This document shows, one piece after another, positions 24,924 through 42,504 of a stretch of DNA of 64,000 nt (the first letter of the stretch is position 1; each line of letters opens with the position of its first letter). The stretch comes from Octopus sinensis (lineage: Eukaryota): assembly GCF_006345805.1 (NCBI RefSeq), contig NC_043004.1:80538001-80602000 (forward strand), read 5' to 3'. The position numbers were made by a program, and so were the translations under genes. Below the pieces are notes generated by a model. The model saw only the letters and a program-made list of their open reading frames with translations. It was not told where the DNA came from and searched no databases.

Positions 24924-24956
<33 letters not shown>

Positions 24957-24959
<3 letters not shown>

Positions 24960-25277
24960 ATATAATTCGAGACAAAACCACTATTTTAAAACCAAACAAG
25001 GAAAGACTTAATCAATACATAAAATTTTAATATAAATTAAATAAACCGCCACTACAAATGTTTCATGTCTGCTACCGACAATCTTCAGGTGGATTTTCGA
25101 TCTTCTAATCAGTATCAAATTTTGATTAGAAGATCGAAAATCCACCTGAAGATTGTCGGTAGCAGACATGAAACATTTGTAGTGGCGGTTTATTTAATTT
25201 ATATTAAAATTTTATGTATTGATTAAGTCTTTCCTTGTTTGGTTTTAAAATAGTGGTTTTGTCTCGAATTATATTAT
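24957..25277. repeat. Perfect palindrome, 155-bp arms, 11-nt loop; probable inverted Penelope-like terminal repeat
   Basis: 24957-25111 is the reverse complement of 25123-25277. It sits in a TA-rich context with (TA)n runs nearby. Confidence 0.93.
25142..25185 (+). ncRNA. Minimal type-I hammerhead-ribozyme-like motif (mirror copy 25049-25092, minus)
   Basis: CCAC-CTGAAGA-T-TGTC(ggtagca)GACA-T-GAAAC(attt)GTA-GTGG. Core CUGANGA/GAAA, stems I-III and a GUA site are present; there is a U-U mismatch at the base of stem II. Confidence 0.65.
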
Positions 25278-25480
25278 ATAATATTTTACTATAAAATTGG
25301 ATTTAACCCTAAATCTGATTTTTCCCTGTAATTTTGGATTCATTCCCTAATATTTATTATTATATATATACATATATATATATATAAGAGCTAATGGTGT
25401 CATTGAGACCCGAAGATGTCAGGTATTACTGAATAAGTGCTATAGACAGACCATAGTTAAGTTTCTATGTCAGCATGTTT

Positions 25481-25746
25481 ATATATATGAATTTTTGGCG
25501 TAATGAAATAAAAAACCAAGGCTGTATAGATATTAGAGCATTTATAGATAGAAGGTCTTACAGCTGTTTCTAGAATATTAATTAATAATAATATCCCTTC
25601 ATCGGAGACGGTGTGAGAGGAAAAATAGGATATTATTATTAATTGATATCCTAAAAACAGTTGTAAGACCTTCTATCTATAAATGCTCTAATATCTATAC
25701 AGCTTTGGTTTTTTTTATCTCATTATGTAAAAAATTCATATATATA
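25481..25746. repeat. Imperfect inverted repeat (~117-bp arms) with a decayed hammerhead-like motif on the minus strand
   Basis: Arms about 25481-25597 and 25628-25746. Minus strand GTCT-CCGATGA-...-GAAAC(agct)GTA-AGAC at about 25555-25609. Confidence 0.75.
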
Positions 25747-28055
25747 CACGTTCATCATTGGATGACTTGTACCTCTGATACAAAGGGTACCCCTGATACA
25801 AAGGTGCCTCTGATACAAAGGCCTTACTTTGTTACACACACACACAGTCTGATGGAAAAGCTCAGGTGTGGCTGTGTGGTAAGTAGTTTGCTTTCCAAAC
25901 ACATGGTTTGGGGTTCAACCCCACTGTATGGCACCTTGGGCAAGTGTCTTCTACTATAGCTTTGAGCCAACCAAAGCCTTGTTAGTGGATTTAGTAGATG
26001 GAAACTGCAAGAAGCCCATTTTGTATATATTTATGTGTGTATGTGTAAGTCTTGTCAGTGGATTTGGTAAATGGAAACTGAAAGAAGCCCATTGTGTATA
26101 TATGTATGTGTCTCTCTCTATGGTTGTCTCAGCATCGTATGATTGTCCTAAATGGCCATTTGTCGTTATCATCATCTCTCGTACACTTTTGCGATGCATT
26201 GATGCCACTACTACAAAATGCTTCCGGATAAAGTTATAGCATTACTTCATCCTGATGTTCTCAAAGTGTTTTCTTGGCAGAGATATTGCAGTGGTTTGCC
26301 ATTGCTGTTCCCAGCTGGTCAGTTGTTTACCAGCAGGCAGCCCAGACCCCCTCCTCCCAAGAATATTAAGCTACTCAAATGGTGGGAACCGGTTCGGTTG
26401 CCTACCGCTCGATCATGGAACAGGTTGTACTGGTTTACATGGTACCAGAAGCAGGCTGCACCAGCCTATGGGGAGATCCCTGCCCTGACATCTGGCCCTG
26501 GGGAAATATTACTTTACTGCTGGTAGGGAAGTATTACCTTCCTTAGCTTGAAAACAAGCAAAGGTTGGTGACAGGAAGGGTATCCAACTAGAAAAATTTT
26601 CTATCAATAAACTCAGATCCATACAAGCAAGGAAAACTGGACATAAAACAAAAGTGAAATGTATATATATGCATCTGTGGTGTACTCAGCCACTTATATA
26701 TTCAGGCATTCATTAAATTATATTATATCACCAAAATTGAAGAACCAATATTCAATTTTATGGGGTGCCACATAGTTTCTGTTCTACGTTAGTATACACG
26801 ACACCGACCATGCTGTGATTGACTGATGGGTGAGGTTTCATAATAAACGGCACTAGGGAAATCAGTTTACCAATTTACAAGTACTATTATGGAATATTGG
26901 ATGAGGAAATAGTGATGGAGGGGTACCATTGTCCCGAGGCTGTTCTATTCTACATCGAGAAATATTGCAAACACATTCTCTAATAGATTGTAAGTGGATT
27001 TTATATTGAGGAATATGACATACAGCCTCTCTAACAGACACTTATGGTTTGCAGACAATATATGTATATATGTGTATGTATATATATATATATATATAAT
27101 ATATATATATATATACATACATACATACATACATACATACATACATACATCATACATCATACATACATACATACACACATATGCATAGTGCGTATGTATG
27201 TATGTATGTACATATATGCGTATTGTACGTCTGTATATATCTGTGCGTGTATATATATATATATATATATATATTTGAGAGTGTGTATGTTATATATAAT
27301 GTATATGTACTTGTACTTTACACATATATATACACACACATCGTTTATTACAGAATCTGTAATATCCCCTATATTTATAGAACACACACACAAACACACT
27401 GTGTAAGCTATATCTAGAAATATTATATACAAACTCCCTAATGGCTTGTTATAGATTATACACACACACACTCACACCTTACAATAAATGATTTCTCAAA
27501 CATTAATTCTTCTCCATTACTGATTTTCCTATACATTCCGCTTTCGTGTGAATCTTATTGAATTACACAGTTTACATATATACCAGCCAGTTCTCAGTGT
27601 GTTTGTACCTGCGTGCATCCATATATATTCATTTCCCCTTTACTTGCTTCAATCATTGGACTGCAGCCATTCCAGGAAACTGGCCTGAAGGGGTTTACGC
27701 AGTTGAATCAACCCCAGTACTTTTTTTTTAAGCTTGGTACTTATCCTGTTTGCCTCTTTTACCAAAACACTAAGCTATGGGGACATAAATATACCAACAC
27801 TGGTTGTCAAGCAGTGCTGGGGGACAAACACAGACACAAAGGCACATACACATAGCTATATATATATGTAGACATATGACAGGCTTCTTTCAGTTTCCGT
27901 AAGCAAGCCACTTACCACACAGCCACTCCTGCTATATGTTTTTACTTCTAGTTCTTTGTATGCGTGTGTGTATGTGCATGTGTATGCATGCATCTGTGTA
28001 TGTTTGTGCATTGCATTTAGAATATATCTCTGTGATTATGTGCTTTGTGTATATA

Positions 28056-41753: not shown

Positions 41754-42457
41754 ATGATGTTTTGGCCCTGATTAAAAATTCAGAAAAAAATACTATGGGT
41801 CACTTGAGCGAGATTTACCGAATCCCTTGGAGTGAGCACCACAAACCAGTGAACAAGCTTTTTGCAAGTTTGTTTGATTACGTGAAGCAGGGACAAGTTG
41901 AAATTCCCATCATTGTAAACGAATTCTTCGACCAGCTCTTGCCTCTTGTTTTCCGATATGCTGTCAATGATCCAACGGTGACCAACTACAAAGAATCACT
42001 CAACGATTGCCTCATCAAGTTGCGTCGTCATTTGCACCCACAACCGTTTGGTACCTTCTCTCGTAAAATGGCTCACGAGCTCTCCACAGTCCTCTGGGCT
42101 GCCAGATCCTACCTTCACGCTCTCTCTGTAGTTTCTGACACCATAAACGCAACAAACCACCTGGATACAGAAGAAACCTGCAAGAAAGGAATTACCCAGA
42201 TGTTGTTCTGTTCTCAATGCAAGGGCCATGTCGGTGTGAAACCTTGCAAGGATTTCTGCCAGGATGTCATGCACAGTTGCTTCAGCAAACAAATGGAAGT
42301 CAGCTATGAGTGGGATGAAATTGTTCGGTTGTTGCGCCAACTTACTCGCTACATGGTTGGACCAAGTGGTTTGGAATCTGTACTCAAAAATATCGACAGG
42401 GTTATTTCCGATGGCATTATGAATGCAATGGACAAAGCGCCGGAATTCACCCCAACG
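41754..42457 (+). CDS. GPC5: Internal coding exon (equivalent to vertebrate exon 3) of a glypican, GPC3/GPC5/Dally subfamily
   Basis: Polypyrimidine tract + CAG acceptor ending 41753 (phase 1) and GTAAGT donor at 42458 (phase 0). The translation has the glypican Cys signature CKKGITQMLFCSQCKGHVGVKPCKDFCQDVMHSC. FFDQLLPLVF and ISDGIMNAM resemble GPC5/Dally more than GPC4/6, and a single ~700-bp exon matches GPC3/5 structure. The symbol denotes the subfamily only. Confidence 0.93.
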
Positions 42458-42504
42458 GTAAGTTTCATAATGTTCCTATTTTTCCCATTCCATTCCTACT
42501 TCTT

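What the first reader, a model, noticed from the sequence alone, without database searches (positions are those of the whole stretch)
24957..25277. Perfect 155-bp palindrome carrying back-to-back hammerhead motifs
Seen: mismatch-free arms with an 11-nt loop. Each arm holds CCAC-CUGAAGA-U-UGUC/GACA-U-GAAAC-AUUU-GUA-GUGG with an intact core, so a transcript from either strand carries one ribozyme-sense copy. Known: Penelope-like elements carry such minimal hammerheads and often leave inverted terminal repeats. Inference: a recent or homogenised insertion. In the glypican pre-mRNA the long hairpin would compete with ribozyme folding and would be a strong ADAR/Dicer substrate.
Basis: partly seen in the sequence, partly recalled or inferred. 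Interest (0 to 1): 0.72.

Follow-up and report, generated by a model that had tools for sequence, protein, structure and literature searches.

The report
Spliced Penelope leader, copied twice head-to-head
This mirror-image DNA in a glypican intron is one of many short dead-end insertions of a young Penelope-type jumping gene; both halves lack the element's intron, so they were likely copied from its spliced messenger RNA from two start sites, which would help explain why full-length Penelope elements keep their introns, while its ribozyme is untested and predicted to be weak.

Summary
The palindrome is real in the assembly (155-bp perfect arms, 11-nt spacer). It is one insertion of a young Hydra-clade Penelope-like element; the RT + GIY-YIG parent lies on contig C4.

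Both arms carry the parent's exon 1 joined to exon 2, with the ~1.3-kb GT-AG intron missing. Genome-wide: 281 spliced-junction matches against 72 intron-type. Of 39 exon-1 matches, all 23 intron-bearing ones run upstream of the likely start site; none of the 16 spliced ones does. Spliced copies often begin with an extra G. Of 76 spliced loci, 57 are head-to-head; 53 of these pair one tailed with one tail-less arm.

Best reading: two target-primed cDNAs from one capped, spliced sense RNA, joined at their 3' ends. Inverted repeats and tails are known; intron-less copies were not found in eight literature searches. This scan has noted the same reading on other DNA, including this genome.

The hammerhead is family cargo with a U·U mismatch at the base of stem II and would be buried in the hairpin. 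Cleavage, editing and a spanning read were not tested.

The parts
24946..24959 (+). Left copy of a candidate 14-bp target-site duplication in a (TA)n run; its last 3 nt overlap the element end
   Evidence: The same 14-mer lies at 25361-25374. Only the single C interrupting the TA run is diagnostic, so this is weak.
24957..25125 (-). Short (tail-less) arm: copy of the spliced leader from unit position 5 to the upstream end at about 176-180
   Evidence: BLAST of the L007 unit on L016
25049..25092 (-). Hammerhead motif in the left arm (mirror copy)
25101..25102 (-). Exon 1 / exon 2 splice junction in the left arm
   Evidence: Mirror of 25132/25133; parent donor and acceptor
25112..25122 (-). The 11-nt 'loop': exon-1 nucleotides 8-18 present in the left arm only; the arms meet at a 3-nt microhomology (TGA, 25123-25125)
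   Evidence: Sequence against parent exon 1
25123..25355 (+). Long (tailed) arm: unit positions 19-252
25132..25133 (+). Exon 1 / exon 2 splice junction in the right arm; the parent has a ~1.3-kb GT-AG intron here
   Evidence: Parent exon 1 ends GAAG|GTATGT and the intron ends TTTTAG|ATCG
25142..25185 (+). Type I minimal hammerhead motif: stem I CCAC/GUGG, core CUGAAGA and GAAA, stem II 4 bp plus U·U, near-palindromic stem III, predicted cut after 25181
   Evidence: activity untested
25281..25355 (+). One-sided tail (~72 nt) between the two likely RT start sites; holds a predicted 13-bp hairpin
25361..25374 (+). Right copy of the candidate target-site duplication
41754..42460 (+). Glypican exon downstream of the host intron (context, not part of the element)
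   Evidence: Pfam PF01153 E 6e-49; glypican-3 chain E 2e-27

Best explanation
The palindrome is a single, non-coding insertion of a young Hydra-clade Penelope-like element whose two arms are intron-less copies of the element's front end, likely made by its reverse transcriptase copying one capped, spliced sense RNA twice. Shown: both arms carry the exon 1/exon 2 junction; one arm ends at the downstream family end (with tail), the other ~72 nt upstream; both ends abut (TA)n. Inferred: the GIY-YIG endonuclease nicks both strands of a (TA)n run; each DNA end primes a cDNA, one at each of two internal RNA sites that lie in the 5' UTR upstream of the ORF; both cDNAs run toward the cap; their 3' ends anneal by a short microhomology (here TGA; most often the self-complementary TCAAA-N-TTTGA in exon 1) and are filled in. 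Because priming lies upstream of the ORF, promoter-started spliced RNA can only give 180-250-nt stubs. ORF-bearing copies would have to come from read-through RNA primed in the next tandem repeat, where the intron is apparently not removed. The hammerhead is carried along as part of the leader and is predicted to be buried in the hairpin.
For: Parent with RT and GIY-YIG beside the same leader. Spliced-junction 21-mer 281 matches, intron-acceptor 20-mer 72 matches, reversed controls 0. Exon-1 29-mer, 39 of 39 matches inspected: 23 followed by the GT intron, all with upstream element sequence; 16 followed by exon 2, none extending more than 6 nt upstream (Fisher p 3e-11; some are arms or duplicates of one insertion). 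Base before the start when not the genomic C: G in 20 of 25; in the 6 cases that I could not assign to the other arm or a hairpin it is G each time (my reading by eye), as expected from copying a cap. 76 loci (first 100 of the 281 matches, C1-C8): 57 head-to-head, 19 solo; 53 of 57 long+short, 0 long+long, 0 short+short, 4 not typable. In 14 of 53 the short arm reaches the 5' end while the long arm stops early (L169: the arms do not overlap), which one folded-back cDNA cannot give; 17 are the reverse, 22 symmetric. Centre base reads sense on the long arm in 9 and on the short arm in 6 of 15 readable centres. Arms of a locus differ by 0.8 substitutions against 4.0 between loci (27 loci). 131 of 133 typed 3' ends lie at (TA)4. 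A sister subfamily (2901 exact matches) shows the same two classes: 12 leader-type, 17 intron-type, 1 other of 30. In vitro, an Anolis element cuts and extends both strands, starts RT at two internal sites and is predicted to be a dimer (PMC11167929).
Against: No RNA data: the start site, cap and splicing are inferred from genomic copies only. One of the 76 spliced loci (L129) carries ~14 nt from about 20 nt upstream of the start site, so the partition is not absolute. Uneven arms could also arise by later deletion in an unstable palindrome, the centre base could flip by recombination between arms, and shared variants could come from gene conversion. Read-through RNA holds both splice sites, and why it would escape splicing is not shown. 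Pfam names neither domain of the parent directly, and every parent copy read has frame breaks. No spanning read for this locus.
Confidence: 0.7

Rival explanations
1. One cDNA from the spliced RNA folds back at its 3' end and copies itself; the endonuclease trims one end, and later deletions make the arms uneven.
For: Exon 1 holds a self-complementary 11-mer at which many centres lie; 22 of 53 pairs are symmetric; both arms share subfamily and rare variants. Endonuclease resolution is the published guess for the tail (PMC8557442).
Against: 14 of 53 loci, including this one, have the tail-less arm reaching further 5' than the tailed arm; L169 arms do not overlap; centre polarity is mixed (9:6); uneven loci often keep positions 1-4, beyond the hairpin centre.
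Confidence: 0.17
2. Self-priming on an antisense RNA template, as proposed for head-to-head Penelope junctions and intron retention (PMC3846280).
For: It is the published interpretation of head-to-head palindromes; it could still apply to intron-bearing copies.
Against: An antisense RNA would not lose a sense-strand GT-AG intron, yet both arms have the exact junction, stop at one 5' site and often carry an extra G. Intron-bearing inverted pairs use the same two ends (7 pairs: L032, L042, L061-L065).
Confidence: 0.03
3. The palindrome is a fold-back artefact of long-read assembly.
For: Perfect arms; no spanning contig among those listed for 4 runs.
Against: A read fold-back would mirror the flank too, but identity stops at the element end. 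The arms differ in length by the family tail, the flanks are different unique DNA, there is a candidate target duplication, and 57 other loci show the same rule with varied centres.
Confidence: 0.04
4. The insertion works as a regulatory element of glypican (ribozyme switch, editing or small-RNA substrate).
For: It lies in a predicted glypican intron and would form a 155-bp duplex, a plausible ADAR substrate by general knowledge.
Against: It is one of hundreds of near-identical young copies, ~17 kb from the nearest predicted exon, with no sign of conservation; the motif has a U·U at the base of stem II and a weak dimer stem (-2.9 against -6.4 kcal/mol in sister variants).
Confidence: 0.04
5. 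A non-autonomous retrozyme replicating through a ribozyme-cut circular RNA.
For: Short, non-coding, hammerhead-bearing and abundant; retrozymes are linked to pLTRs (10.64898/2026.07.22.740005).
Against: No tandem monomers among the 76 loci other than two local duplications of the whole insertion; copy ends lie ~50 nt upstream and ~95-170 nt downstream of the predicted cut, not at it; the sequence is simply the parent's spliced 5' UTR.
Confidence: 0.02

Closest known systems
Hydra clade of C-terminal-EN Penelope-like elements (Craig et al. 2021, PMC8557442; passages, section 11 and supplement passages read), e.g. Hydra-1_Obim
   Same: DKT motif, CxCX5C linker, C-terminal GIY-YIG with CxxC and CxH and without CCHH, (TA)n targeting, hammerhead in the repeat
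   Different: A different family: a 16-nt stem III motif and the SDKTRN peptide give 0 hits in the supplement. Asn-rich insert between thumb and linker, KWK for RWK, 5.4-6.2-kb tandem unit with a 1.3-kb intron; no spliced copies are described in the parts read.
Penelope of Drosophila virilis (PMC2377424, passages read)
   Same: Start site in the pLTR, short first exon, 5'-UTR intron ending just before the hammerhead, inverted terminal repeats, optional tail
   Different: Intron 75 bp there, ~1.3 kb here; tail 34 bp there, ~72 nt here; there genomic copies are described as intron-retaining, here intron-less junctions outnumber intron-type ones about 4:1.
Poseidon PAc of Anolis (PMC11167929, parts 1-2 of 4 read)
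   Same: Two internal RT start sites define the tail; AT-rich targets; both strands cut and extended; the hammerhead is not needed for insertion in vitro
   Different: PAc starts RT inside the ORF; here both ends lie upstream of the ATG (downstream end ~60 nt before it). The parts read do not treat head-to-head pairs or splicing.
Minimal type I hammerheads of metazoan PLEs (PMC4209133, parts 1-2 of 4 read)
   Same: Core CUGANGA/GAAA/UH, 4-bp stem I, palindromic stem III suited to dimers, opposite-strand pairs 100-700 bp apart noted there
   Different: No G10.1-C11.1 pair (U·U here; U-A or A-U in sister subfamilies); stem III has two central U·U mismatches in a dimer.
L1 twin priming (recalled, not read here)
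   Same: Second target strand primes internally, giving an inverted part joined by microhomology
   Different: In L1 the two parts barely overlap; here both usually cover the same 5' leader, and both start sites are fixed.

Membership tests
EN+ Penelope-like element | RT and GIY-YIG endonuclease in one reading unit linked to this repeat | tested here: met
   L066/L067: leader, then RT (YRDD) and GIY-YIG-type (VYIG) frames; 989 homologs, one with a Pfam GIY-YIG hit. Copies read have frame breaks; Pfam does not hit the parent itself.
EN+ Penelope-like element | pLTRs in tandem or inverted arrangement with a one-sided tail | tested here: met
   Tandem on C4; inverted pairs long+short in 53 of 57
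EN+ Penelope-like element | Intron retained in genomic copies | tested here: inconclusive
   Met for long copies (23 of 23 exon-1 matches with upstream sequence; every RT-bearing locus with the motif has the acceptor-type junction); not met for this copy and 281 junction matches
Hydra clade | DKT instead of DKG; CxCX5C linker; CxxC/CxH around E and N; no CCHH | tested here: met
   SDKT, CTCRDKSKC, CYLCSNE, KCRH against PMC8557442 section 11
Hydra clade | N-terminal RWK motif | tested here: inconclusive
   RIKWK in the parent and in L178; homologs have RMRWK
Hydra clade | (TA)n insertion | tested here: met
   131 of 133 ends
Hydra clade | Length generally under 3 kb | tested here: not met
   ORF region ~2.55 kb, but tandem unit 5.4-6.2 kb; the paper says 'generally', so this is not strict
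Hydra clade | Placement in the RT tree | not tested
   No reference proteins in usable form; compared by motif and by eye with the supplement alignment
Hammerhead ribozyme (minimal type I) | Conserved core letters and three stems | tested here: met
   Core and 10 of 11 pairs invariant in 8 variants; position 7 and loop II vary. Covariation is not above shuffles (248 of 500).
Hammerhead ribozyme (minimal type I) | Paired 10.1-11.1, usually G-C | tested here: not met
   U·U in this subfamily; paired in 5 of 8 aligned variants, none G-C
Hammerhead ribozyme (minimal type I) | Self-cleavage | not testable with these tools
   No assay; no RNA reads
Non-LTR retrozyme | Tandem monomers bounded by the cleavage site | tested here: not met
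   Copies end at the likely start site and at two downstream sites

The most novel reading that the evidence does not exclude
Penelope-type elements integrate by symmetric double priming: a dimeric RT-endonuclease copies one sense RNA from two fixed sites, one per cut DNA strand. Intron retention is then positional: capped, spliced mRNA is copied often but gives only short head-to-head stubs, while full-length progeny come only from read-through RNA in which the short first exon has no nearby cap and is not spliced. This genome's stubs are a fossil record of that split.
Probability: 0.55. Interest if true: 0.72.

Novelty: new variant of a known kind. Interest (0 to 1): 0.52.

Why it matters
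The copy itself is likely inert. The family bears on two open points: why Penelope-like elements keep introns ('significance unknown', PMC8557442; explained by selection in PMC2377424 or by an antisense template in PMC3846280) and how head-to-head repeats with a one-sided tail arise. The 23:0 split among mostly dead copies argues against selection as the sole cause, and the spliced junction argues against an antisense template for these stubs. Both points give sharp predictions for the existing in vitro system. Such insertions also seed perfect intronic duplex RNA across the genome, whose editing is untested.

Tried and rejected
Rfam: no hammerhead family hit; the miRNA-like hits below gathering score reflect the hairpin only. 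Pfam and PDB sequence searches did not name the parent RT. My first clade guess, Neptune or Nematis, was dropped after reading the Hydra definition. Sequencing runs: no RNA holder listed; contigs of 4 runs held many family fragments, but no listed piece spanned the locus, which is no evidence either way; RNA support for splicing was not obtained. A predicted extension of stem I by exon-1 bases in the spliced leader is not above shuffles (z -0.21). Hammerhead covariation is not significant. The variant tally counts overlapping loci more than once and was used for variant types only. No systematic target-duplication scan was completed beyond this locus. Lünse et al. 2017 and Pyatkov et al. 2004 were not held; Arkhipova 2003 and 2006 were not looked up. 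These could bear on stem II tolerance and on earlier mention of intron-less copies. Supplements of PMC4209133, PMC11167929 and PMC3846280 were not opened.

Full report
Observation. The arms 24957-25111 and 25123-25277 are perfect over 155 bp with an 11-nt spacer, and each holds one hammerhead-like motif. Nothing comparable occurs in the window except (TA)n runs. Rfam has no hammerhead match.

Family. The arm is a young repeat: 63 matches from 40 scored of 1277 candidates, nearly all 96-100% identical, and 171 exact copies of the 35-nt core. The unit has a fixed 5' end and two 3' ends about 72 nt apart, both abutting (TA)n (131 of 133 ends). In the window the right arm has the longer end, so the insertion spans about 24957-25360, with a candidate 14-bp target duplication whose only diagnostic base is one C.

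Parent. [quoted passage not shown] Homologs are ~700-aa proteins, one with a Pfam GIY-YIG hit; 139 RT matches were scored in the genome. The motifs fit the Hydra clade as defined in PMC8557442 section 11; no tree was built. The copies read carry frame breaks.

Splicing. In long copies the first 27 nt of the unit lie ~1.3 kb upstream of the rest, followed by a GT donor, and the rest is preceded by a pyrimidine-rich AG acceptor. Both window arms have these two pieces joined exactly (25132/25133 and its mirror). Exact counts are 281 for the junction and 72 for the acceptor form. All 39 matches of an exon-1 pattern were read: 23 go on into the intron and all have upstream element sequence; 16 are spliced and none goes more than 6 nt upstream. 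One locus outside this pattern, L129, is spliced yet carries ~14 nt from further upstream. Where the base before the start is not the genomic C it is G in 20 of 25; several of these can be explained by the other arm or are duplicates, but 6 clean cases are all G, as expected from copying a cap (inference). A sister subfamily with 2901 matches shows the same two classes and its own exon 1 with a GT donor.

Geometry. I examined the 76 loci behind the first 100 of the 281 junction matches. 57 are head-to-head and 19 solo. 53 of the 57 pair a tailed with a tail-less arm; none pairs like with like; 4 could not be typed. Of the 53, 22 are symmetric, 17 have the tailed arm more complete and 14 the tail-less arm more complete, this copy among them. 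One folded-back cDNA cannot give the last group without later deletion. The centre base points either way (9:6). The two arms share variants (0.8 substitutions within, 4.0 between loci; 27 loci), which fits one RNA copied twice but also conversion.

Mechanism. Inferred: nicks on both strands of a (TA)n run prime two cDNAs at two fixed sites in the 5' UTR of one capped, spliced RNA; they run to the cap and join by microhomology. This matches the in vitro behaviour of the Anolis element (both strands extended, two internal starts, predicted dimer; PMC11167929). It conflicts with antisense self-priming (PMC3846280) for these stubs. Since priming is upstream of the ORF, ORF-bearing copies need read-through RNA; these keep the intron, perhaps because the short exon is recognised only next to a cap (untested).

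Ribozyme. Core letters, stem I, four stem II pairs and the stem III base are invariant in 8 variants while position 7 and loop II vary, which fits a maintained fold but is not significant covariation. This subfamily has U·U where PMC4209133 reports a conserved G10.1-C11.1 pair, and a weak dimer stem. The motif's best predicted fold is not the hammerhead, and in a transcript through the locus it would be buried in a -252 kcal/mol hairpin. Copy ends do not lie at the cut site. Activity is untested.

Host. The insertion lies between homology-predicted glypican exons on the + strand, one ~35.4 kb upstream of the window (E 0.033 to the paralog exon, with the conserved cysteine pattern) and one at ~41754-42460. 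No transcript, editing or small-RNA data were obtained.

Novelty. Inverted pLTRs, one-sided tails, (TA)n targeting and hammerheads are published. Intron-less genomic copies and double priming of Penelope-like elements did not appear in the listings of eight searches or in the parts of seven papers read: PMC4209133 and PMC11167929 (parts 1-2 of 4), PMC3846280 (passages, Discussion), PMC8557442 (passages, section 11, supplement passages), PMC2377424, PMC6765202 and 10.64898/2026.07.22.740005 (passages). Several older papers were not available. I stated the spliced-leader reading before consulting earlier notes; notes of this scan on other DNA, in this genome and others, give the same reading and are not independent support. 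That the host is an octopus comes from those notes and my recall, not from a test here.

Verdict. A real but likely inert insertion of a known class, whose family gives clean, countable evidence on an open mechanism. Interest 0.52; new variant of a known kind.

Noticed in passing
window 25477-25749: A second, older head-to-head element right beside the finding: ~120-bp arms about 90% alike, from another high-copy family (2143 first-look candidates). On the minus strand near 25555-25610 it has a hammerhead-shaped motif with core CCGAUGA (C in place of the conserved U4), a long stem II and a palindromic stem III; 4 distinct relatives share CCGAUGA.
   Followed up: partly
L067 (G000:C4:78.08-78.09 Mb), upstream of both hammerhead copies: These tandem copies lack the family exon 1 and carry a different upstream block of about 1.5 kb or more that ends in a donor-like site, repeated at both junctions: possibly a captured host promoter or first exon carried within the element.
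   Followed up: no
L067 4000-4200 and sister copies L176-L178, L194: An Asn-rich (AAT)n-type insert of variable length between the RT thumb and the linker, like those described for Adineta Penelope elements.
   Followed up: no
window 25168-25182 (+): A four-codon upstream ORF (MKHL) starts inside the hammerhead and spans its predicted cut site; it lies ~250 nt before the element's main ATG.
   Followed up: no
L003 and L075 centres: Two head-to-head insertions hold ~140-175 nt of foreign sequence between the arms; in L003 part of it looks like a reversed tRNA-derived repeat (by eye), suggesting template switching to other RNA.
   Followed up: no
L174 2600-2890; L180; L068; L151: Local tandem repeats of the tail segment (three copies of unit 166-252) and whole-insertion duplications at 450-580-bp spacing.
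   Followed up: no
G000:C19:39.91-39.95 Mb: A second glypican gene in this genome (five exon matches).
   Followed up: partly
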